Shown here one piece after another: positions 1 to 39,727 of a DNA stretch of 51,481 nucleotides (its first letter is position 1; every line of letters starts with the position of its first letter). Source of the stretch: an archaeon (GTDB taxonomy: Archaea; Nanobdellota; Nanobdellia; Woesearchaeales; GW2011-AR9); contig JAHFSD010000003.1 in the NCBI GenBank assembly GCA_023265925.1, positions 1 through 51,481 on the forward strand, read 5' to 3'. Both the position numbers and the translations under genes were made by a program. The notes beneath the pieces were generated by a model. That model ran no database searches. It had not been told where the DNA came from and was given only the letters and a program-made list of their open reading frames with translations.

Positions 1-1511
1 GTAAGTCCATAGGTTCCTGCTTGTGCAGATGTTGGCGTCCAGCTAAAAGTGGCAGTGCCATCCCAATGATTGACTAAACCAGCTCCTGCTGGCCAGCCGC
101 TCGTGGCAAAAATTAAAGCATCGCCATCCGCGTCCGTTGCCGAAACGGTAAATTGTAATAGTTCTCCTTCGTCCACACTTTGATCATCAACTGGTGCAAC
201 GACAGGAGCATTGTTAGTGTTGAGGACAGTAATCGTAACCGTCTCTAAATCATATAAAGCAGCACTATCCATCGCCCGGAAGGTTACTTGATGTTGTCCG
301 GCCTGGGTCAGAGTTGGCGTCCAGCTGAATTGTCCGGTTTGCTGATTAAAAGCTGCCCCTGTAGGGAGATTCGTTGATTCTAATGAGAAAGCATCACCAT
401 CAGGATCGCTGGCAGAAACAGTAAATTGCAGGAGTTGTCCTTCGCTTACCTGTTTATTGCCAATTGGATTCAATACCGGTGCACGATTAGTATTGGCTAC
501 CGTAATCGTATAGCTTTGTGTAACCGTACCTATTCCATCAGCAACCTGAACCGTTACGTCATGCTGTCCGGTCTGGTCAAAGGTCGGCGTCCAGCGCACC
601 ACATTGTTGGGCGTTAAGCTCATTCCTGCCGGCCCGGCCATCAGGGAAAAAGTCAAAGCATCTTCAGCATCGGCATCGGTTGCCGTGAGCGGATAGACAT
701 AATAAGCATTTTCTTTTCCCGGCGTAACCGGCGTAGAAGTAAATACGGGCAACCTATTGACGTCATTCACGGTAAAATCAGCATATTCCCAATTTCCAAA
801 GCGTTCTCCATCAAAAGCATGGAGGCGCATTCCTGCCGTTCGTTCGGCATTAGGATGTTTCACGAAATCAAATCCGGGCGTAAAGCTTAATGCGCCGGTC
901 TGTTGATTAAAAGTCATTCCTGGCAATAATCGGTTCTGGGAGGAAGGGGTAAATGCTTCCGCAACATTGCAGAGCCAGACACCTTTACAGTCACGCCGGG
1001 CAACATAGGTAACAGCATCGCCGTCAGCATCAGAGCCGGAAGCGGTTAATGCCAGCGTTGCCCCTTCATTGAGTTCCTGATCCGCGACCGGATTCATGGT
1101 GGGGGAGGTTTCGACGTGAAGATTGAGCCAGGCCGTCGAATCGCCATCAACATTGAGAACATGGACACGGACAAGATAATCACCAGCCAAATCACTGGTA
1201 GGAACATTAAAGGTTTGGAAATAGTTTGAATTTAAATTTGCCGGAACAAAGGTCTGGATGACTTCTTGTACCACCGTATTTCCCCGTAATACCTGTATCC
1301 AGAGGGCAAAATCGTTGGTGCTCGTGACCAAAACAAATAAGGGCGGGCTTTCACCCTGTGCAACAGCAATGGAATTGGTATTGCCGTCAGTCCATAAACT
1401 GGTCACAGCTATCGAATCAGCATAGGCAATGGAGGCGACTGTTGCCATCAGCATCACTAAACTGATTGTCCAGGCGATGATGTTTCGTGAGTTTCGTGAT
1501 GGTGTGTTCAT
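1..1511 (-). CDS. Secreted surface protein with tandem cadherin/putative-Ig (He_PIG-like) repeats; truncated at window start
   Basis: Hand-translated minus frame (not in the ORF track because it runs off the edge): MNTPSRNSRNIIAWTISLVMLMATVASIAYADS signal peptide, then at least 4 repeats of about 93 aa with DQxVxEG...SATDxDGD...FSWTPT motifs. GAGGA SD precedes ATG 1511; an upstream in-frame ATG lies at 1550. Confidence 0.8.
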   Translation of the reverse strand, partial: MNTPSRNSRNIIAWTISLVMLMATVASIAYADSIAVTSLWTDGNTNSIAVAQGESPPLFVLVTSTNDFALWIQVLRGNTVVQEVIQTFVPANLNSNYFQTFNVPTSDLAGDYLVRVHVLNVDGDSTAWLNLHVETSPTMNPVADQELNEGATLALTASGSDADGDAVTYVARRDCKGVWLCNVAEAFTPSSQNRLLPGMTFNQQTGALSFTPGFDFVKHPNAERTAGMRLHAFDGERFGNWEYADFTVNDVNRLPVFTSTPVTPGKENAYYVYPLTATDADAEDALTFSLMAGPAGMSLTPNNVVRWTPTFDQTGQHDVTVQVADGIGTVTQSYTITVANTNRAPVLNPIGNKQVSEGQLLQFTVSASDPDGDAFSLESTNLPTGAAFNQQTGQFSWTPTLTQAGQHQVTFRAMDSAALYDLETVTITVLNTNNAPVVAPVDDQSVDEGELLQFTVSATDADGDALIFATSGWPAGAGLVNHWDGTATFSWTPTSAQAGTYGL

Positions 1512-1566
1512 GTTTGATCCTCGCTGTTCGTTTCCTATTTTGTTTCCCATAGTGAAAATTAAAAAA

Positions 1567-3000
1567 TTAAAATCTAAACCGCAGGCCGCCACTGCTTACA
1601 ACTTCCTTCGTGTGGCTGTCTACCCCTAATTTTCCTTCCAGGCAGACTCGGTTTTTATAGCAGAGATCAACCTGCGCACGGGGAACGACCGAGTAAACTG
1701 TTCTGGCGCTGGTTTCTTCTCCCGTTACCACCTGAGCGTCGCCAACGAGGTTACCGGTACCGGCAGCGTCAGAAAGCTGAGTTGTTCTCATTGTTTCTGT
1801 CGTTGATTTTTCTTCTCCCCGATAGGCTGTTGCTCCTACTCCGGCAGCAACGGAGAAGCGTCTGCTGTTTCGTGGCCGGAAATCTCTCGTCCAGGCAGAA
1901 ACGCCGGCTCCAGCCAGGTAACGCATCTGTACTTCTGTTTCACTCTGTTCTAATGTTAGTTGCTGGTATCCTGATCCTACCGGAGAGGTTGTTGCCTCCG
2001 CAGAGGATGATTCTGATTCGACGGGTTGTCCACCAACCGCTTCTGCTCCGACACACAGTCGTCCTTTCTTTCCGACAGCACAGACATCTGCTCCCACGGC
2101 GGCAGCAGAAGCGCCACCAAAGTTCAGGTAGTCAGCATGCGGCTCGACGCTCCATTTTCGTGGATCGAGGCGATGGGCCAGATTGCCTTCAATGCGCCCG
2201 CGAAGTCTGGCGGCGCGCCAATCGTAGCCACGTTGTGCATCTGCACACTCTTCGGTTAATTTTTTAACAGCGCCGTCTTTCACTCGATATTCCTGTTCCA
2301 GTTTCTCAATTTGTGCTCTTAAGCTGGTGGCACGTTCGGTCCGCTGCTGGTCAGTCAGAGTAGTCTCAGCCTGCAATGCTAAGACTTGATCGTTGAGTCC
2401 TTTTCGTTGTGCCAAATAGGCATTTTCACCTTCTGCTACTTTTCGATGGGCTCCATATGCTTGCCCACACGTTCTCAGCATCGCATCTTTCTGCCCCGTA
2501 AGGTCAGCAAAGAGATTATTGACAATTCCCGTCAGATAGGTTAAGCCAGCACTTTTCTGCAGGTTCTCAACGGTTTGTCTGATGGTTGCGTAGCTTTCCA
2601 GACTGGTAATCATATCACTTATGACTTGCCGATTAGTTTGTGTCACTTCTGCCAATCCTGCTACTCTGCCTTGCCAGTCTCTTAATTCGCTTTCCAGCCG
2701 GCCAAGTTGTTTCTGGGTTCTGCTTGGGCCAACTTTCTTTTGGGGAGCTGGTGGGCATTGTTGTTGAGGTGGACATGTAGCTGGTTGTGCAGCTGCCGGT
2801 TTTCCTGACGGAGCTGGATCACGACCTGGCCGGACTCCTAATTCACCAGATCCCTGTGTGGGGGCAGCTGCCGGTCCTGATGGATCGGAAGCTTCCACTC
2901 CCCTGGCTTTAAGCTCCTGAGCATACCCAGTACTACCAGCCATCAGATAGGTACTAATTCCTAACGTTGTTCCGACAATCAAATTTTTGGCGAATGACAT
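1567..3000 (-). CDS. Secreted protein: signal peptide, Pro/Gln-rich linker, long coiled coil, C-terminal beta-strand-rich (barrel-like) domain
   Basis: 477-aa ORF with GGAGG SD, hydrophobic N-terminus, heptad-rich middle, amphipathic strands ending GGLRFRF. Confidence 0.75.
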   Translation of the reverse strand: MSFAKNLIVGTTLGISTYLMAGSTGYAQELKARGVEASDPSGPAAAPTQGSGELGVRPGRDPAPSGKPAAAQPATCPPQQQCPPAPQKKVGPSRTQKQLGRLESELRDWQGRVAGLAEVTQTNRQVISDMITSLESYATIRQTVENLQKSAGLTYLTGIVNNLFADLTGQKDAMLRTCGQAYGAHRKVAEGENAYLAQRKGLNDQVLALQAETTLTDQQRTERATSLRAQIEKLEQEYRVKDGAVKKLTEECADAQRGYDWRAARLRGRIEGNLAHRLDPRKWSVEPHADYLNFGGASAAAVGADVCAVGKKGRLCVGAEAVGGQPVESESSSAEATTSPVGSGYQQLTLEQSETEVQMRYLAGAGVSAWTRDFRPRNSRRFSVAAGVGATAYRGEEKSTTETMRTTQLSDAAGTGNLVGDAQVVTGEETSARTVYSVVPRAQVDLCYKNRVCLEGKLGVDSHTKEVVSSGGLRFRF

Positions 3001-3017
3001 TTTGTTTTCCTCCTTGC

Positions 3018-4754
3018 TTATTTGTAAAATTCCACAAATGGTTTATCATCTGCTATCCCTTCACAAACACCTCTTTCTTCAAGAGCAGATACAAATGGAC
3101 TTTCCGTTTCTTTGTATCCACCCATAGCAGTATGTAAATTTTTTAATCCTTTCTCACAACCTGGACCAGGAATTCTGACATATCTTAATCTACCGGTGTA
3201 TTCAGCAGCAATTCTGCTCAATGCTTTCGGATCACGAATGTTTGCCTTAATTCTTTCGGCAGTGGTTCCAGCAAGTGTGCGTTTCAGCTCGATTATTCGG
3301 TCTACTGCCACGTTATATCCTTCCCGGAATTGCTTTTCACCCTGCTCGGCCGTGTTCGCCCTTCGCATCTCAGCATCATACATCCCCTGCCAGGCTGCCT
3401 GTTCTTTCTTCCACAACGCTCCCGCCGACCCTTCTCGCAATCTTCTGGCTTCTTCATTCCGCGTTGAGTAATCGTGCTGCAAATCTTTATTCTCTTTACT
3501 TAGACTTTGAACTTGAACTGCTCTCGTGTAAGCAGCCTCCCGATATTTTGTAGCCTCAACTGTCATGAACTTGTATGCCACTACTGCTCCCACAACTGCA
3601 ACAGTTGCGAAAACACCTAAAAATTTATATCTCTTTAACTGTATCCTTTCCTGCTGCAATTGCTGATACAATATACCTGACTGCTTTTCCCGTTCTGCCA
3701 ACAGATCTGACCGCTTATCTCTTACTTTCTCGGCAGCTTCTCGAAATTCTCGTTCTCTTGATACCTCTCCCGCCAGGCGCAAATTCTCCGCTTTCGCTCT
3801 CAGACATTCAGGAAGCTGACTAACCAGGCGGCGATGTTCTTCTTCCATTAAATCGTCCAGAGTCTCAGTGATTTCTTCATCATCCCGATTAATCTGGAAA
3901 TGCTGGAGCCGTGCTTCTCCCTGTTTCTGTAGTCCCTGGATTACATATTGTTGTACCTGCTCCAAAGAATAGGGAAGATACATATCGTCTACATTCCGCG
4001 CAAAGGCGCTGGCAACGTTCACGGCAGCAATTTTGTCTTCGGGCGTTTCTGCCGGCTCAGCGAGCAATTTATCAAGAGTGTTAAGATAATGCTCGACAAC
4101 TTCAGTTCCCCGGCACTGCACCGTTTCGGCGAAGAACTCCAAAATATATTTTATCCTTTCACCAGCTTTGCCACTATGCGGCATACTTAATCCAGGATGT
4201 TGCTGCTCCAGGAAGGAAAAGTATTGTTCGTAGGCTATTCTGGCCGACATGAAATCGCCCGTGTCCCAGCCTGACTGCAATTTTGCGGTGAGGTCCTGTC
4301 GTAACTGCTGCCTGCGCAGGGTATCAGCTTCCTCATACAGTCCTAGCTCTACTTCGACCGGTTGGAGAGAAATGATTGTCTGATCAATTTCTGGCCGTGT
4401 TTCCAATGGAGTACCTGATGGAGCAGCAGCATTTCCTAATGATCTTTCCCCAACGATGTCGGTATCATCTACCAGAACATCTGCTCCATCCTCATCCGGA
4501 ACAGCATCTACCGGAACAGCACCAAATGCGCTCGTGGGCAGATATTGAAGAAGACACGTACGTACTTGAGCTTCGGGAACCAGAATTTCTTCTGAGGGTC
4601 TTTCCGGGTTGATCCGATAAAAATGTGAGCCTCTTATAATATAATTTCCGACCGAGAGGCTATCGCGAGCTTCCTCCAGAGTTAATTCTCTCCCTAGGAG
4701 CCGTACTACCGCTACTAATCTCTCCAAGGTATTCTCTTCTTCGATTGGTGCCAT
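3018..4754 (-). CDS. Hypothetical single-pass membrane coiled-coil protein
   Basis: 578-aa ORF with one TM segment (FLGVFATVAVVGAVVAYKF) flanked by charged helical regions; 17 bp upstream of the 1567-3000 gene. Confidence 0.75.
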   Translation of the reverse strand: MAPIEEENTLERLVAVVRLLGRELTLEEARDSLSVGNYIIRGSHFYRINPERPSEEILVPEAQVRTCLLQYLPTSAFGAVPVDAVPDEDGADVLVDDTDIVGERSLGNAAAPSGTPLETRPEIDQTIISLQPVEVELGLYEEADTLRRQQLRQDLTAKLQSGWDTGDFMSARIAYEQYFSFLEQQHPGLSMPHSGKAGERIKYILEFFAETVQCRGTEVVEHYLNTLDKLLAEPAETPEDKIAAVNVASAFARNVDDMYLPYSLEQVQQYVIQGLQKQGEARLQHFQINRDDEEITETLDDLMEEEHRRLVSQLPECLRAKAENLRLAGEVSREREFREAAEKVRDKRSDLLAEREKQSGILYQQLQQERIQLKRYKFLGVFATVAVVGAVVAYKFMTVEATKYREAAYTRAVQVQSLSKENKDLQHDYSTRNEEARRLREGSAGALWKKEQAAWQGMYDAEMRRANTAEQGEKQFREGYNVAVDRIIELKRTLAGTTAERIKANIRDPKALSRIAAEYTGRLRYVRIPGPGCEKGLKNLHTAMGGYKETESPFVSALEERGVCEGIADDKPFVEFYK

Positions 4755-34573: not shown

Positions 34574-35368
34574 TTATACACCACCCATGATCGCCGTTTT
34601 GACATCTTCCCGGCATTGACAAGGCCAATCGCTGATGTTCGGAATAGTGTGCAGGAATAATTGGATTACTTTTTCGACGTTCTGATGAAAGACCTTCAGC
34701 ACTTCTTCCCAGGTGACTCGCTCTGTTGCGGAACGCCAGCAGTCATAGTCAGTACTCATGGCAACGGCAGCATAACAGATGCCGGCTTCCCGGGCGAGGA
34801 CCACTTCAGGAACCGTGGACATGTTAATCACGTCAGCGTTCCAGCTGCGGAACAGGCTTGATTCTGCTCTGGTCGAGAAACGCGGGCCTTCAATCGTGAC
34901 GACTATACCCCGGGGATGATGGGACAATTTTAATTCGGTGGCAGCGGAGGTAAGAATCGCTCTCAATTTTGGGCAGAATGGTTCCGCCATGGAGATATGA
35001 CAGACTTTTCCTTCTTCATATAAAGTTTGCTTTCGTTTGGTGGTACGGTCAATGAATTGGTCAACGAACACAAAATCGCCGGGCTTGATTTCTTCGTTCA
35101 ATGAGCCGCAGGCCGTCGAGGCAAAAATATGGGTACAGCCCTGCTCTTTCAAAGCCCAGATATTGGCTTGGTTATTGACCTTGCTGGGCATGATGGAATG
35201 ATTGCGGCCGTGGCGGGCTAACAGAACTACGTCAATGCTTTGGATTTTTCCGATTTTTAATGGTGAGGAGGGCTTTCCATAGGGTGTGAGAACATCAATA
35301 TCCTTTGCTTCTTTCAGTATAGCGGGGTTATCGAGTCCCGAGCCGCCGATGAGGCCGATTTTGAGCAT
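34574..35368 (-). CDS. mtnP: 5'-methylthioadenosine phosphorylase
   Basis: [47 protein letters not shown]. Confidence 0.94.
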
Positions 35369-35470: not shown

Positions 35471-36124
35471 CTAAAAAAATTTCATCTCTTGGTTACCAAT
35501 CACTTCCTGTGCCATCATATTGTTCCACAGCAGCATCGCGGATGCCAGTGCACCCGGTTCATCTTTTTTACCAAATAACTGAAGAATATTTTTCTTGGAC
35601 AGATTGTTAAAAATATCGGCAGATTCACGGGCACTTTTACCCCGCAGAAGCGCTAGCGCCAATTCATTTGAAGGCTGTAGGAAGAGTTGAGCAATTTTAT
35701 CTTTTAATGGTGTTGTTGATCTGCTGGTATCAATCCAAAAGCTAAATGGCTGGTTATAACCAATAAAACATCCCCCTTCCTGGGTGCTTGCTCTTCCCAA
35801 TGATGCCGCGGCACTACAAGCCCGAGCATAGGTTAATTTTCCCTGAAGCAGCTGGTGATTCTGACCTTCCCTGATTAAATATTCGGTTTCGGTGCCAATT
35901 TTATCCCCGTAAATGGTCTGCTCATCTCCATGGGCATTAAACAGCAGTAATTGGGGTTGCCGTTTTATGATACTGGTTTCAACATTATTTCTTCTTAATC
36001 TGGGGCGTTTAAATTGACTGATGGGGATACCATTATCTTCAGCAAACTTGACAAGTTCCTCAGCATAGCAATAAAAGTAAGAAGTAGCATCATCATAATT
36101 GGGCAGGGTAATAATTGCTTTCAT
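35471..36124 (-). CDS. Putative caspase/gingipain-fold (clan CD) cysteine protease
   Basis: LLFNAHG (His65) and YARAC (Cys103) each at the end of a predicted beta-strand, followed by CFIGY; ATGA-coupled to the upstream gene. Confidence 0.6.
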   Translation of the reverse strand: MKAIITLPNYDDATSYFYCYAEELVKFAEDNGIPISQFKRPRLRRNNVETSIIKRQPQLLLFNAHGDEQTIYGDKIGTETEYLIREGQNHQLLQGKLTYARACSAAASLGRASTQEGGCFIGYNQPFSFWIDTSRSTTPLKDKIAQLFLQPSNELALALLRGKSARESADIFNNLSKKNILQLFGKKDEPGALASAMLLWNNMMAQEVIGNQEMKFF

Positions 36125-36348
36125 TCTGCTATGGCCCTGGAGAAGTCACCACTTGCTAACGCTTTCATAAAGTTTAGCTGCATTTTAGCAAACATTACTC
36201 CAATGTCATCCCCCTTTTCTACATGTTGTTTTAGTTCTTCTTTGGTATAAGTGCCTTTAGTACCTACTGACAACTTAAAGTTCGGAGGGATAGCTTCCAG
36301 CTTCCACAACACTATTTTCTTCAGCTCTTCCGATATTTTTTCAGTCAT
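36121..36348 (-). CDS. Small hypothetical protein, paralogue of 36345-36548
   Basis: 75 aa; 4-nt overlaps with both neighbours. Confidence 0.75.
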   Translation of the reverse strand: MTEKISEELKKIVLWKLEAIPPNFKLSVGTKGTYTKEELKQHVEKGDDIGVMFAKMQLNFMKALASGDFSRAIAE

Positions 36349-36548
36349 AGTAAGCCCAACTTTTTTAGTATTTTTAATATTTTCCTTCCCGTTTCTGACC
36401 CACTCTTAACTTCTATCGTTGCCGCCACCCAGGTATAAGGATTATCATCCACAACGGCAATTACTTCTTCAGACTTCACTTTTTGAGGAAGATTAGCAAA
36501 GGCTTTAAGAAATTTTGTTCTGAGAAATTGATAGTCATCTTTGGCCAT
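36345..36548 (-). CDS. Small hypothetical protein, paralogue of 36121-36348
   Basis: 67 aa; own minus-strand TATA (TTTATATA, about 36571-36578). Confidence 0.75.
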   Translation of the reverse strand: MAKDDYQFLRTKFLKAFANLPQKVKSEEVIAVVDDNPYTWVAATIEVKSGSETGRKILKILKKLGLL

Positions 36549-36651
36549 ATTCCTTACTAAATAAGTGACCTATATAAAGTTTCTTGTGTGCGGAGTGAGG
36601 GGATATTTCCTGGAGGCTGGTCTAGCCCTGAGCCGCCAATGAGGCTGATCT

Positions 36652-37083
36652 TCAATTTTTGTCTCTCTTCCATTCTTTAATAAGTGGTGAGAAGTCCAGT
36701 TGATAATCAGGAATGCCCAGTTTTAAACCGTATTTCGTAACATCTCTATATCGTTCTGGTTTAGTGCGTTCAACTTTGAACACTTTGTGGCGAAAAATAA
36801 TATAATGAAATTTATCGTTTTTGAAATCAGCATACCAGGAATGTTTAGAATCCAATGCTGTACTCAGCTCCTTGGCAACCATCTTAGCTTGATTCTCTGG
36901 AATTTCAACCGTGTGTAAAGTCCATCGTTTAACCCAGGGGGTCTGGTGGTTTTTAGTAACTTTTTCAATTTTCGTTTTGACAATTCTTACTTTTTGCAGA
37001 ATAGTTTTATTTTCCAGGCTTTCCTCAATAATAACACCAATGAAATAATCTACACTTTGTGGCATCCTTATTTTTTGAACCAT
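36652..37083 (-). CDS. Hypothetical protein
   Basis: 143-aa ORF starting 1 nt after the HEPN stop; IIEESL, WYADFK and GIPDYQLDF segments; no function recognised. Confidence 0.75.
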   Translation of the reverse strand: MVQKIRMPQSVDYFIGVIIEESLENKTILQKVRIVKTKIEKVTKNHQTPWVKRWTLHTVEIPENQAKMVAKELSTALDSKHSWYADFKNDKFHYIIFRHKVFKVERTKPERYRDVTKYGLKLGIPDYQLDFSPLIKEWKRDKN

Positions 37084-37084
37084 T

Positions 37085-37612
37085 TTATGTATCCTGCAGG
37101 ATTAACCCTATTTTTGCCACAAATTTCGTGGCATTTTCAAAAACTTCCTGCAATCTTCTCTCCGTGTAGGTTGTAATCGCTGAATAGCGCGCAATATGAC
37201 TTTCAGTTTTGGCATCCTCAAAATAATGAACATATTCATCCTCAAAAATTTTGTGGGACTGGTTAAGAATTTCTAAATCTTCCCTTTCCAGCTTATCCGG
37301 CACTAATAAGTGCCCCAGGGCAATCTGAGCGGCGTCATGGTCTTGGACTTCATAGCCTTTAAACAAAATTGCTGCCTTAGCTGCATACAGCATCGAATAA
37401 TAGAAACTGGTCATGGCCCAATAATCCCAATACATTCTTGGTGGCTGGTCTTTAGTTGGTTTTAAGTCTTTAATATGCTTGGCAATCAGCAGGCTATTCT
37501 CAGCTTTAGCCAGAAATAATTTAATCTTGAAGGTCTCCAATGATTTTTTAATCCTGTTTTCTGCCAGAGCAGTCTTGAATAGATTGGCATAAGCTCTTCG
37601 GTCAAATTCCAT
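37085..37612 (-). CDS. HEPN-domain protein
   Basis: FLAKAENSL, FYYSMLYAAKAAIL, HDAAQIAL pattern; overlaps the MNT gene. Confidence 0.8.
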   Translation of the reverse strand: MEFDRRAYANLFKTALAENRIKKSLETFKIKLFLAKAENSLLIAKHIKDLKPTKDQPPRMYWDYWAMTSFYYSMLYAAKAAILFKGYEVQDHDAAQIALGHLLVPDKLEREDLEILNQSHKIFEDEYVHYFEDAKTESHIARYSAITTYTERRLQEVFENATKFVAKIGLILQDT

Positions 37613-38174
37613 GTAACACTAACCCCCAAAACGCTTCCGGATTATTAAGTATAATATGATTCTTTAAAGCTTGTTTTCCCACGTTTTCTTCCTGAGCATG
37701 GAGCATCTTTTTAAATTCTTTGGCGGTAATGAAGATGGGGCTAATTCTTTTCCTGAACAACAGCTCATATTTAGAAAAAGAGAGAGATTTCTTCCCATCT
37801 TTATTAATCACCAATAGATCAATATCACTTTTTTCGGTTTCTTTGCTTTTAGCATAGCTGCCAAAAAGAATAACGGTGTCTTGGGTATCCAATTCACTGG
37901 CAATTTTTTTAAGAATAGGCTGCCGGGGAAGAAATTCCTTCCGTTCCTCATCGGAAGAGACTGTAAGATGGGCTTTTACGACGGGGTTTTTGGTCTTCAG
38001 GCCCATTGTTTTAGATTTTCCAACTGTTTCAATTTCTAAAACATCGCTCATCTGCTGAACCGCCCGGTAAAAACTAGCGTAAGGAATACCCACTAACTTA
38101 CTCAGCTCGTGCATCGTAAAGCGCTTTTCCAGCTGCTTTCCCAGATAATTGATGATTTTATGCTTATTATCCAT
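37602..38174 (-). CDS. HTH + minimal nucleotidyltransferase (MNT antitoxin-like)
   Basis: N-terminal HTH, ILFGSYAK...SDIDLLVI (GS-x10-DxD). Confidence 0.88.
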   Translation of the reverse strand: MDNKHKIINYLGKQLEKRFTMHELSKLVGIPYASFYRAVQQMSDVLEIETVGKSKTMGLKTKNPVVKAHLTVSSDEERKEFLPRQPILKKIASELDTQDTVILFGSYAKSKETEKSDIDLLVINKDGKKSLSFSKYELLFRKRISPIFITAKEFKKMLHAQEENVGKQALKNHIILNNPEAFWGLVLHGI

Positions 38175-38288
38175 TTTTGGATAACATTAATCATAAATGA
38201 TATATAAACTTTATGCTTTTGTGCTCCGGATTTATGAACTGCCCCAAGCCACCGATAATACCCTTTTTGACCATGTTGGCTTTAAGCC

Positions 38289-39545
38289 TCACGTCCCTTC
38301 CTGCCAACTGGTCAGATAGCTGTTCTGCTCGGCGGTCAAGACGTCTTTCCTGATTCCTAACGCTTCCAGCTGCAATTCGGCGATCGTCTGGTCTATCTCC
38401 GGAGGAAGGACGTTAACACCCACTTTCAATTTTCTTTTATTTTTCACTCCGTATTCAATCGCCAACGCCTGCCCGCAGAACGATTGCGCCATCACCACCG
38501 AAGGATGCCCCTCGGCGGCAGCGAGGTTGATCAGGCGGCCTTCTCCCAGCACATATATTTTTTTCCCGGTATCGAGAGTGAATTCTTCCATGAACGGCCG
38601 TATCATGCGGCACTGTTGGGCTCTCTCCCGCAACTTGTTCACATTGATTTCCGCATCAAAATGGCCAGAATTGGCCAGGATGGCCCCGTCTTTCATCCGT
38701 TGCAGGTGCGGAATATCAATGACATTTTTATTACCCGTTACCGTGATGAAGATGTCTCCTTCTTCGGTCGCATTCATGATTGGCATGACCCGATAGCCAT
38801 CCATCACCGCCTGCAAGGCGCGGAAGGAATCAACTTCCGTTACGATGACGTTAGCGCCCATGCCTTTCGCCCGTAAGGCTACACCCTTTCCACAGGGCCC
38901 ATAGCCGCAGACCACCACGTTCTTTCCAGCCAGAAGAATGTTAGTAGCCCGCGTTATGCCGTCGAGAGTGCTCGCTCCCGTTCCGTAAAAATTATCAAAC
39001 AGATGTTTCGTCTTCAGGTCATTAATGGCCAATACCGGGTATTTTAAGGCGCCAGCCTTTTCCATTGCCCTGAGGCGAATAATTCCCGTCGTCGTCTCTT
39101 CATTCCCAAACCAGATTTGCGGGATTAAGTGGGGATAGCTGGTATGAATCTCCGACACCAGATCACAGCCGTCATCAATGGTGATTTGCGGCTGGGAAGC
39201 AATGACACTGCGCAACGCTTCATAGTATTCTTCCTTGGTCTGCCCTTTTTTGGCATAGACCTGGAAACCTTCCTGGGCCAAGGCAGCGGCCACATCATCC
39301 TGTGTTGATAAAGGGTTGCAGGAGCAGATGGCAATCTCAGCACCGCCTGCCCGTAGCGTGCGGACAAGAACAGCAGTCTCTTTCGTGACGTGAAGCGCGA
39401 TGCCAATCTTTAATCCGGCAAAGGGCTTTTCCCGGGCAAAGCGCTCCCGCACTTTCAGCAGCGCGCCCATCTGCGCTTCGGCCCATTCGATGTTTCTCAA
39501 GCCCTGATCAGCTAACGATAAATCTTTTACTTTGAAATTTCCCAT
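38289..39545 (-). CDS. ahcY: Adenosylhomocysteinase
   Basis: SCNPLSTQD, IDDGCDL, EETTTG, KHLFDNFYGTG, GHFDAEI, EGRLINL, EGHPS. ATG 39545 is preferred over the track start at 39572. Confidence 0.97.
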   Translation of the reverse strand: MGNFKVKDLSLADQGLRNIEWAEAQMGALLKVRERFAREKPFAGLKIGIALHVTKETAVLVRTLRAGGAEIAICSCNPLSTQDDVAAALAQEGFQVYAKKGQTKEEYYEALRSVIASQPQITIDDGCDLVSEIHTSYPHLIPQIWFGNEETTTGIIRLRAMEKAGALKYPVLAINDLKTKHLFDNFYGTGASTLDGITRATNILLAGKNVVVCGYGPCGKGVALRAKGMGANVIVTEVDSFRALQAVMDGYRVMPIMNATEEGDIFITVTGNKNVIDIPHLQRMKDGAILANSGHFDAEINVNKLRERAQQCRMIRPFMEEFTLDTGKKIYVLGEGRLINLAAAEGHPSVVMAQSFCGQALAIEYGVKNKRKLKVGVNVLPPEIDQTIAELQLEALGIRKDVLTAEQNSYLTSWQEGT

Positions 39546-39727
39546 AGTCTCACTTTCTGAATATTGGTGCAAGATATGGTCAGGATAAGCATTTTTCTAC
39601 GTCGCACGCCACGGGTGGCGCTTTATCGTGGGGTTTCCGAGCAAAGCGAGGAATACCCCACCTGATCATCTCGCCTAGGATACTGGCAGCATAACCTATA
39701 TAAATGTTTAGAAAATAACATCCTTCC

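What the first reader, a model, noticed from the sequence alone, without database searches (positions are those of the whole stretch)
35471..36548. Coupled three-gene module: two small paralogues plus a caspase/gingipain-fold protease
Seen: three AT-rich genes chained by ATGA overlaps behind one TATA box. The 67-aa and 75-aa products align with each other: L(R/K)..(F/V)L...(L/I)P..(V/F)K ... YT ... (E/H)V..G...G. The 217-aa product has LLFNAHG (H65) and YARAC (C103). Established: the strand-HG / strand-xC dyad is the clan CD (caspase, metacaspase, CHAT, gingipain C25) signature, and in prokaryotes these proteases often act in cell-death or defence circuits. Inference: a compact proteolytic switch in which the twin small proteins are sensor/inhibitor and substrate/effector. 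I do not recognise it as any named defence or TA system.
Basis: partly seen in the sequence, partly recalled or inferred. Interest (0 to 1): 0.78.

Follow-up and report, generated by a model that had tools for sequence, protein, structure and literature searches.

The report
Minimal caspase-like protease three-gene cassette
Three overlapping genes in a tiny symbiotic (DPANN) archaeon encode two related small proteins of unknown fold and a stripped-down caspase/gingipain-type cysteine protease; the trio always travels together through variable, toxin-antitoxin-rich parts of DPANN genomes and matches no described system, so it is probably a new protease-based conflict module, though its function is untested.

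Summary
Three minus-strand genes (67, 75 and 217 aa) are joined by ATGA overlaps behind a TTTATATA box 30 nt upstream of the first ATG.

- **Protease.** The 217-aa protein models at pLDDT 95.9. Its best structural matches are the CHAT domain of SAVED-CHAT and caspase-11/-4. His65 and Cys103 are invariant in 52 relatives of 25-50% identity. One relative passes Pfam's Peptidase_C25 threshold.
- **Small proteins.** BLASTP finds no similarity between them. Profile comparison with deep alignments supports distant paralogy (hhalign 83-87%, far above shuffled controls). The 75-aa model matches no known fold.
- **Linkage.** The same gene order recurs at about 95 of 98 loci with enough sequence, across DPANN lineages.
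- **Distribution.** The trio is patchy (27 of 301 genomes), sometimes multi-copy or decayed, and lies near HEPN-MNT, VapBC, Fic, restriction and Bro/ORF6N genes.
- **Local context.** Here it is one of two AT-rich cassettes inserted between the SAHH and MTAP genes, each bounded by a leftover MTAP start.

No PADLOC, PHROG, NCBIfam or literature match exists. My best reading is a toxin-antitoxin-like or abortive-infection-like switch in which the paralogue pair docks on and restrains or directs the protease. The fold and genetics are shown. The protein complex, trigger and targets are inferred.

The parts
36571..36578 (-). TATA box (TTTATATA) of the cassette's own promoter. It starts 30 nt upstream of the S1 ATG, a spacing that implies a leaderless or near-leaderless transcript.
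   Evidence: Read directly. TATA-like octamers peak at -31 to -29 upstream of S1 in 82 other loci. DNA similarity to other triads extends to 36589-36597.
36345..36548 (-). S1: 67-aa small protein with family signature F..(Y/F)AN(L/V)PE..(R/K)..I..V.D.(K)P(Y/F)(T/S)W..A..E(I/V)....T..GKKIL. Its stop overlaps the S2 start (ATGA).
   Evidence: It is always the first gene of the triad. The S1-S2 overlap is -4 nt in 44 of 49 loci measured.
36121..36348 (-). S2: 75-aa small protein, a probable distant paralogue of S1 with an extra C-terminal helix. Modelled topology is helix, beta-hairpin, then three helices.
   Evidence: AF2 model pLDDT 79.6. hhalign against S1 gives 83-87% with controls. No fold match in PDB or BFVD.
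35471..36124 (-). Minimal (217 aa) clan CD cysteine protease. It has a caspase/CHAT-like alpha/beta core carrying His65-Gly66 after strand 59-62 and Ala102-Cys103 after strand 97-100, followed by a C-terminal helical bundle (residues 143-205) and a last strand (206-210).
   Evidence: AF2 pLDDT 95.9. Foldseek finds SAVED-CHAT 8tl0 at E 2.5e-7 and caspase-11/-4 at about 3e-4. H65, G66, G73, C103, G110 and G122 are invariant in 52 diverse relatives. Family member P0235 passes the Peptidase_C25 gathering score.
36614..36655 (-). Leftover copy of the MTAP gene start ([14 protein letters not shown]), differing from the functional start mostly at synonymous positions. It marks the upstream boundary of the triad cassette.
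   Evidence: Direct repeat D1, 26 of 32 nt. Sequence read. The motif occurs only at the three MTAP-start sites in the window and nowhere in 39 other loci.
35331..35368 (-). Functional 5' end of the MTAP gene ([13 protein letters not shown]), the downstream boundary repeat of the triad cassette.
36652..38174 (-). Neighbouring cassette made of an MNT nucleotidyltransferase (37602-38174), a HEPN protein (37085-37612) and an unassigned 143-aa ORF (36652-37083). It has its own TTTATATA box and 37.6% G+C.
   Evidence: Pfam NTP_transf_2/Polbeta and HEPN hits. PADLOC PDC-M05A and PDC-S09 hits. Weak NCBIfam MntA hit. G+C. Promoter read.
38236..38274 (-). Second, more decayed leftover MTAP start (MVKKGIIGGLGQF), 14 nt after the SAHH stop codon. 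It is the likely original junction between SAHH and MTAP.
   Evidence: Relative G138 has SAHH, about 70 nt, then MTAP with nothing between.

Best explanation
This is a self-contained, horizontally mobile three-gene proteolytic conflict module of DPANN archaea, resembling a toxin-antitoxin or abortive-infection system. One promoter drives a leaderless-type transcript. Translational coupling through the ATGA overlaps produces S1, S2 and the protease together. S1 and S2 are distant paralogues with a helix/beta-hairpin/helix domain. They most likely pair with each other and dock on the protease, either keeping its Cys103-His65 site latent or selecting what it cuts. Loss, displacement or degradation of the small proteins (through infection, stress or loss of the cassette) would free a minimal caspase/gingipain-type protease to cleave cellular or invader proteins.

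Shown here:
- the operon anatomy;
- near-strict linkage of the three genes;
- the clan CD fold with an invariant dyad;
- patchy, multi-copy and decaying distribution;
- residence in an inserted cassette and in islands rich in toxin-antitoxin and restriction genes.

Inferred, not shown:
- the S1-S2-protease complex;
- inhibition of the protease;
- the trigger;
- the substrates and cleavage specificity.
For: Operon and coupling are shown. The order S1, S2, protease holds at 30 of 32 places in a phylum-wide genome sample and at 65 of 66 usable loci in the GTDB genome collection.

The protease model has pLDDT 95.9. Foldseek's top hits are SAVED-CHAT (E 2.5e-7, TM 0.59) and caspase-11/-4. H65 and C103 are invariant at 25-50% identity. 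A relative passes Pfam Peptidase_C25 at 29.2 bits against a cutoff of 23, over residues 45-215. S1-S2 paralogy is supported.

The module behaves as an accessory element. It is in 27 of 301 genomes of the phylum, with up to 3 copies per genome. Tandem copies exist (L081), as does a deletion-decayed S1-protease fusion. DNA similarity to other triads starts and stops exactly at the cassette, 35472-36597.

The insertion site is documented. An empty SAHH-MTAP junction exists in G138. The same spacer in a same-genus genome holds VapB/VapC. Leftover MTAP starts bracket the cassettes.

Neighbouring genes at other loci include HsdR, HsdM, PIN-MazE, Fic, MNT/HEPN, Bro-N, ORF6N, RhuM and a Schlafen-like ATPase. 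MNT-like ORFs are 3.2 times denser near triads than in the own genome (18 seen against 5.6 expected, P 2.5e-5).

A distant paralogous protease (L036) follows a 438-aa protein whose C-terminus matches the S1 profile (E 6.7e-5). This fits S-type domains acting as adaptors that dock on the protease.
Against: There is no functional data of any kind. No toxicity, complex formation or cleavage has been shown.

Guilt by association is weak in DPANN genomes, which are full of toxin-antitoxin genes. The own genome has 18 MNT-like ORFs in 1.2 Mb. The enrichment test borrows that genome's density for other genomes.

Some loci lie next to giant surface-type proteins and pilus ATPases instead, and one neighbourhood is entirely unannotated.

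S2 shows no antitoxin-type DNA-binding fold (RHH, HTH or AbrB). No PADLOC or PHROG model matches. The cassette was not found on IMG/VR viral contigs. No integrase lies in the window cassettes.

The S1-like match in L036 is weak (8.9 bits). The H65-C103 distance in the model was not measured.
Confidence: 0.5

Rival explanations
1. This is a processing or tagging system. S1 and S2 are the dedicated substrates of the protease rather than its inhibitors. They would be cleaved to mature or activate them. Alternatively the enzyme acts as a transpeptidase, as the clan CD enzymes PorU (C25 family) and the GPI transamidase do, attaching or releasing the small proteins as tags.
For: The only Pfam family reached is Peptidase_C25; from general knowledge this family includes the sortase-like PorU. 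Strict 1:1:1 linkage and translational coupling fit an enzyme with dedicated substrates. Both small proteins carry a mostly basic residue at the same position after the conserved LP turn. S1 and S2 have no recognisable regulatory fold.
Against: No conserved cleavage motif could be defined; the basic position is not invariant (alignments). The proteins are very small, with no C-terminal Gly-Gly or sorting-signal-like tail. No conjugation or target genes are linked. The patchy, island-borne, decaying distribution is more typical of selfish or conflict modules.
Confidence: 0.2
2. This is an accessory physiological protease unrelated to genetic conflict. It might, for example, act in the DPANN-host interaction or in turnover of surface proteins, with S1 and S2 as chaperone-like or specificity subunits.
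For: Two loci place the triad directly after giant (about 1500-1700 aa) surface-type proteins and near type IV pilus-like ATPase genes. The family is restricted to DPANN lineages. The weak top fold hits of S2 are to prefoldin beta subunits (E 0.3, not significant).
Against: The protease and the small proteins have no signal peptide or membrane segment (sequences). The neighbourhood is not conserved. Only about 9% of sampled genomes carry it. In this window it is an inserted cassette beside HEPN-MNT.
Confidence: 0.15
3. The 217-aa protein is a catalytically dead scaffold with a caspase-like fold, and the triad is a non-enzymatic complex.
For: Inactive caspase-like domains exist in other proteins (general knowledge). 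No activity has been measured here.
Against: His65, Gly66 and Cys103 are invariant across 52 sequences at 25-50% identity, while most of the rest of the protein varies. This is hard to explain without catalysis. In the 34-sequence alignment the only exception was one sequence with Gln in place of His.
Confidence: 0.05

Closest known systems
CHAT protease domain of SAVED-CHAT (PDB 8tl0) and related CHAT/Craspase effectors of CBASS and type III CRISPR systems
   Same: It is the best structural match (Foldseek E 2.5e-7, probability 1.0, TM 0.59 over the query). It shares the His-then-Cys dyad on a caspase-like sheet and serves in prokaryotic conflict systems.
   Different: There is no sequence-level CHAT hit. 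The protein is 217 aa with no SAVED, TPR or other sensor domain. No cyclic-nucleotide or CRISPR genes are nearby. Its partners are two small proteins rather than a fused sensor.
Peptidase family C25 (gingipains, PorU), Pfam PF01364
   Same: It is the only curated sequence family reached. Five of 52 relatives match, and one (P0235) exceeds the gathering score over residues 45-215, which spans the His and Cys motifs.
   Different: The window protein itself does not match. C25 enzymes are large, secreted, multidomain bacterial proteins, whereas this one is a cytoplasmic-looking minimal domain in archaea.
Caspases (caspase-11, caspase-4, caspase-1)
   Same: Fold matches at E of about 3e-4 to 6e-2 and TM of about 0.47. 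His follows one strand and Cys follows the next, in the same order.
   Different: Sequence identity is only about 12%. There is no QACxG pentapeptide (here YARAC), no prodomain and no evidence of cleavage into large and small subunits. Specificity is unknown.
Three-gene type II toxin-antitoxin operons such as omega-epsilon-zeta or toxin-antitoxin-chaperone systems
   Same: Two small upstream genes are translationally coupled to a larger downstream enzyme. Distribution is patchy, multi-copy and decaying. The location is among other toxin-antitoxin cassettes.
   Different: No known toxin-antitoxin toxin has a clan CD protease fold, as far as PADLOC, NCBIfam, Pfam and the literature searches show. 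The small proteins are paralogues of each other and lack known antitoxin folds. Toxicity is untested.

Membership tests
Clan CD cysteine peptidases (caspase-hemoglobinase fold) | An alpha/beta/alpha sandwich whose central sheet matches caspases, CHAT or gingipains | tested here: met
   The AF2 model has pLDDT 95.9. Foldseek finds SAVED-CHAT at E 2.5e-7 (TM 0.59) and caspase-11/-4 at E of about 3e-4. All nine hits with E <= 1e-3 are CHAT or caspase chains.
Clan CD cysteine peptidases (caspase-hemoglobinase fold) | Catalytic His (usually His-Gly) at the end of one strand, followed in sequence by catalytic Cys (usually Ala/Gln-Cys) at the end of the next core strand | tested here: met
   Strand 59-62 is followed by N63-A64-H65-G66. 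Strand 97-100 is followed by R101-A102-C103.
Clan CD cysteine peptidases (caspase-hemoglobinase fold) | The dyad is conserved throughout the family | tested here: met
   H65, G66 and C103 are invariant in 52 representatives of 25-50% identity. C103 is invariant and H65 is at least 90% conserved in 34 closer sequences.
Clan CD cysteine peptidases (caspase-hemoglobinase fold) | His and Cys side chains are adjacent in space | not testable with these tools
   Model coordinates are not exposed (one search lists the files available). Adjacency is only implied by the fold match.
Clan CD cysteine peptidases (caspase-hemoglobinase fold) | Peptidase or transpeptidase activity that depends on the Cys | not testable with these tools
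   This needs biochemistry.
Pfam Peptidase_C25 (PF01364) | Score at or above the family's gathering threshold (23 bits) | tested here: inconclusive
   The window protein has no hit. Five of 52 relatives hit. P0235 scores 29.2 bits at E 7.2e-7 over residues 45-215. This indicates a distant relative, not a plain member.
Pfam CHAT (PF12770) | Sequence match to the CHAT profile | tested here: not met
   No CHAT hit for the window protein or among the 25 Pfam families most often matched by the 52 relatives. The resemblance is structural only.
Type II toxin-antitoxin systems | Small co-directional, overlapping genes forming an autonomous operon with patchy, mobile distribution | tested here: met
   plus insertion-site evidence.
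Type II toxin-antitoxin systems | An antitoxin with a recognised DNA-binding or neutralising fold (RHH, HTH, AbrB, Phd/YefM and similar) | tested here: not met
   No Pfam, NCBIfam or PDB sequence match. The S2 model has no significant fold match. S1 was not modelled.
Type II toxin-antitoxin systems | The toxin arrests growth and the cognate antitoxin relieves it | not testable with these tools
   This needs expression experiments.
Known anti-phage defence systems (PADLOC-DB v2) | Match of any component to a defence-system model | tested here: not met
   No hit for S1, S2 or the protease at E <= 1. Only the neighbouring MNT matches (PDC-M05A, PDC-S09).

The most novel reading that the evidence does not exclude
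The triad is a new class of conflict system found only in DPANN archaea. Its toxin or effector is the smallest known caspase-type protease. It is controlled not by a fused sensor but by a heterodimer of two paralogous adaptor proteins with a previously unseen fold. The same adaptor domain can be fused to larger partner proteins, as in the 438-aa protein at L036. It would then act as a modular 'protease-docking' domain, analogous to the effector-associated domains of bacterial conflict systems.
Probability: 0.35. Interest if true: 0.78.

Novelty: new variant of a known kind. Interest (0 to 1): 0.62.

Why it matters
Caspase-type (clan CD) proteases are central executioners of immunity and cell death in animals, plants and bacteria. 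Known bacterial examples include CHAT/Craspase and gasdermin-activating proteases. Here a roughly 215-aa version, close to the bare catalytic core, forms a large family: 1465 clusters at 50% identity. The family is uncurated and confined to DPANN archaea, and it is always sold as a package with two tiny paralogous partners.

If it is a toxin-antitoxin or abortive-infection switch, three things follow:
- It would add a protease-toxin class to archaeal conflict systems.
- It would show how a caspase can be regulated in trans by minimal adaptors.
- It would provide a very small, tractable caspase-like enzyme for structural and specificity work.

It would also document cassette-wise turnover of conflict genes at a fixed chromosomal spot in genomes of only about 1 Mb.

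Tried and rejected
- **Sequence libraries.** Pfam, PADLOC, NCBIfam and PHROGs gave no meaningful hit for the three window proteins.
- **PDB by sequence.** Searches with the single protein and with profiles of all three families found nothing significant.
- **Finding the C25-matching relative.** The Peptidase_C25 signal appeared only when 52 relatives were scanned. Three further batches were needed to find the matching member (empty, positive).
- **Paralogy of the small proteins.** BLASTP and shallow-profile comparison failed. Only deep alignments showed it.
- **Fold of the 75-aa protein.** Foldseek against PDB and BFVD gave no significant match. The prefoldin-beta hits (E 0.3, rmsd above 11 Å) were rejected as topological coincidence.
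- **Viral origin.** The A2 profile was too diverse for the pattern scan. A1 found no relative on IMG/VR contigs.
- **MTAP-start remnants at other triads.** None were found, so the MTAP duplication is a feature of this insertion site and not of the cassette itself.
- **Other copies in this genome.** No further S-like or protease-like genes exist in the own genome.
- **Literature.** Searches for DPANN plus caspase, for C25 plus archaea plus toxin-antitoxin, and for caspase-like three-gene defence found no description.
- **Considered and rejected.** A secreted sortase-like role was rejected because there are no signal peptides. A link to CRISPR or CBASS was rejected because no such genes lie in any neighbourhood seen.
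Full report
**1. Observation**

The minus strand carries three ORFs: 36345-36548 (67 aa, here S1), 36121-36348 (75 aa, S2) and 35471-36124 (217 aa). Both junctions are ATGA overlaps. A TTTATATA box lies at 36571-36578, starting 30 nt before the S1 ATG. In 82 related loci, TATA-like octamers pile up at -31 to -29 from the S1 start. The cassette therefore has its own archaeal promoter, with spacing that implies a leaderless or near-leaderless mRNA.

The triad has 40.3% G+C against 46.9% for the window.

**2. The 217-aa protein**

No curated library names it, and PDB sequence search is empty. It nevertheless has 118 close homologues, all in DPANN metagenome-assembled genomes. A profile search of 1.84 billion representatives found 1465 clusters at 50% identity (234 at E <= 1e-30). 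The 150 best listed are mostly about 215 aa long.

In 52 representatives at 25-50% identity, the invariant positions are H65, G66, G73, C103, G110 and G122. An AlphaFold2 model built on 34 sequences is very confident, with pLDDT 95.9 and pTM 0.92. Strand 59-62 is followed by N-A-H65-G. Strand 97-100 is followed by R-A-C103. There are two further core strands, a three-helix C-terminal bundle and a last strand.

Foldseek against the PDB gives nine hits at E <= 1e-3, all of them CHAT or caspase chains. They are SAVED-CHAT 8tl0 (E 2.5e-7, TM 0.59) and caspase-11 and caspase-4 (about 3e-4).

At the sequence level, 5 of 52 relatives touch Pfam Peptidase_C25. One of them, P0235, exceeds the gathering score: 29.2 bits against 23, over residues 45-215 against profile positions 215-374.

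I conclude with high confidence that this is a minimal clan CD cysteine protease, or possibly a transpeptidase. It forms a new family distantly tied to C25 and structurally nearest to CHAT.

**3. The two small proteins**

S1 has 40 close homologues and S2 has 64. None carries a useful name in any source.

BLASTP between them finds nothing, and hhalign on shallow alignments gives 3%. I then harvested diverse copies from related loci. The first run gave probability 87% and E 3.8e-6 over 48 columns. With 89 and 79 sequences it gave probability 83%.

In a separate run with a different match-column setting, the native score was 24.9. That compares with a mean of 9.4 ± 1.5 and a maximum of 13.6 in 60 column shuffles, and 16.6 for the reversed profile.

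The shared signature has four parts in order:
- an amphipathic helix;
- an (L/I)P turn followed by a mostly basic residue;
- a beta-hairpin ending in (Y/F)(T/S);
- a helix carrying E(V/I)...(T/D)..G(K/R).

They are probably distant paralogues.

An AF2 model of S2 (pLDDT 79.6) has helix 7-19, hairpin 25-28/32-35 and helices 36-45, 48-66 and 68-74. It has no significant match in the PDB or BFVD. The best hit is prefoldin beta at E 0.3 with rmsd above 11 Å, which I discount. The fold is unassigned and S1 was not modelled.

**4. Linkage**

In a sample of 301 genomes of the phylum, 27 carry the protease, some in 2-3 copies. At 30 of the 32 places found, S1, S2 and the protease are adjacent in that order. 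The two exceptions are a degraded fragment and a distant paralogue.

In the GTDB genome collection, 71 loci were found. They come from Woesearchaeota, Pacearchaeota, Nanoarchaeota, Aenigmatarchaeota, Nanohalarchaeota, Altiarchaeota and Parvarchaeum. A few records are labelled Methanosarcinales or Euryarchaeota. Of the 66 loci with upstream sequence, 65 have the full triad.

The S1-S2 overlap is -4 nt in 44 of 49 loci. The S2-protease junction is mostly -8 to +2 nt.

**5. Mobility and context**

The window's own 1.2-Mb genome has exactly one triad and no other S-like genes. DNA similarity to other triads begins at the protease stop (35472) and ends 40-50 nt upstream of S1 (36589-36597). The conserved unit is therefore the 1.1-kb cassette with its promoter.

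The cassette sits between the SAHH gene (38289-39572) and the MTAP gene (34574-35368). The MTAP start occurs three times:
- the functional one, with ATG at 35368;
- a copy at 36655-36614 ([14 protein letters not shown]), differing mostly at synonymous positions;
- a decayed copy at 38274-38236 (MVKKGIIGGLGQF), 14 nt after the SAHH stop.

These copies bracket two AT-rich cassettes. One holds MNT, HEPN and orf143 (36652-38174). The other is the triad.

A relative, G138, has SAHH, about 70 nt and then MTAP with nothing between. A same-genus genome, G301, has a VapB/VapC(PIN) pair in the same spacer. This spot is thus a hot spot where toxin-antitoxin-type cassettes come and go. No integrase is present here, so the insertion mechanism is unknown. 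It could be site-specific integration in trans, or recombination through the conserved gene start.

Elsewhere the triad's neighbours vary:
- HsdR, RadC, PIN-MazE and Bro-N;
- a Schlafen-like ATPase, Bro-N, RhuM and MNT;
- MNT, UvrD and Fic;
- HsdM, three ORF6N genes and two MNT pairs;
- a Dam-like methylase, ORF6N and an SbcC-like ATPase;
- MNT and NYN;
- MNT-HEPN directly after the triad in L026, with MNT and/or HEPN homologues also nearby in L018 and L017.

Two loci instead lie beside giant surface-type proteins, and one neighbourhood is wholly unannotated.

MNT-like ORFs are 3.2 times denser within ±3 kb of triads than in the own genome: 18 seen against 5.6 expected, Poisson P 2.5e-5. The caveat is that the background density is taken from one genome only.

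Signs of decay and duplication exist. L081 has two tandem triads. L061 has an ORF that fuses S1 to the C-terminal helices of the protease. The cassette was not found on IMG/VR viral contigs.

**6. A lead on the role of the S domain**

At L036, a distant protease paralogue (218 aa, FSHG...VACK) is not preceded by S1 and S2. It is instead preceded by a 438-aa protein abutting it. The C-terminus of that protein matches the S1 profile (residues 369-415, E 6.7e-5 in a one-sequence search), and it has a second FxNVPE-like fragment upstream. A Phage_integrase gene lies next door. The match is weak. It nonetheless fits the idea that the S-type domain is what docks a partner onto the protease.

**7. 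Mechanism**

My best reading has confidence of about 0.5. It is a toxin-antitoxin-like or abortive-infection-like proteolytic switch. The co-translated S1-S2 pair binds the protease and restrains or directs it, and loss of that control unleashes cleavage of cellular or invader proteins.

The following are shown:
- the operon anatomy and gene linkage;
- the clan CD fold with an invariant dyad;
- accessory and mobile behaviour;
- island context.

The complex, the inhibition, the trigger and the substrates are inferred.

The rivals are:
- a dedicated processing or transpeptidation system in which S1 and S2 are substrates or tags (0.2);
- an accessory physiological or symbiosis protease (0.15);
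- a dead scaffold (0.05, contradicted by the invariant dyad).

**8. Comparison and novelty**

The closest known things are these:
- CHAT domains of SAVED-CHAT and Craspase, by structure;
- Peptidase_C25, by sequence and distantly;
- caspases, by fold;
- three-gene toxin-antitoxin operons, by genetics.

It fails sequence membership of CHAT. It is borderline for C25. It matches no PADLOC system. It lacks a known antitoxin fold. No paper in the searchable library describes it.

Two earlier notes of this scan flagged the same cassette in other genomes and reached a similar reading. I treated them as leads and re-derived the evidence here.

I rate it a new variant of a known kind: a protease-based conflict module built on a new clan CD family with a new pair of partner proteins.

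Noticed in passing
window 35331-35368, 36614-36655, 38236-38274 (minus strand): The start of the MTAP gene is present three times: one functional copy and two leftovers. The copy at 36614-36655 differs mostly at synonymous codon positions. The three copies bracket two inserted AT-rich cassettes between SAHH and MTAP. No integrase is present, so the insertion mechanism is unexplained.
   Followed up: partly
window 36652-38174 (minus strand): A HEPN-MNT toxin-antitoxin pair (37085-37612 and 37602-38174) is followed by an unassigned 143-aa ORF (36652-37083) that has no family hit and no paralogue in the genome. Together they form their own cassette with a TTTATATA promoter.
   Followed up: partly
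L057 (G301:C19) 162-821: A same-genus genome carries a VapB/VapC (PIN) pair in exactly the SAHH-MTAP spacer where this window has the two cassettes. The spacer appears to be an insertion hot spot for toxin-antitoxin-type cassettes.
   Followed up: yes
L036 (G229:C2) 197-3498: A distant paralogue of the protease follows a 438-aa protein whose C-terminus weakly matches the S1 profile. A tyrosine recombinase with a zinc ribbon lies adjacent. This may be a variant system in which the adaptor domain is fused to a larger protein.
   Followed up: partly
L061 775-1167 and L081: L061 holds an ORF that fuses S1 directly to the C-terminal helical part of the protease, a deletion-decayed second triad. L081 holds two triads in tandem.
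   Followed up: partly
L001 1-2770 and L003 1-3336: In two distant loci the triad lies directly downstream of very large (about 1500-1700 aa) Cys-rich surface-type proteins. One of these loci is also close to type IV pilus-like ATPase genes. This context does not fit the defence-island picture.
   Followed up: no
It resembles the MTAP-start leftovers and may be the same kind of recombination scar.
   Followed up: no
own genome (G000): The 1.2-Mb genome holds about 18 MNT-like nucleotidyltransferase ORFs, a very high load of HEPN-MNT-type modules for its size.
   Followed up: partly
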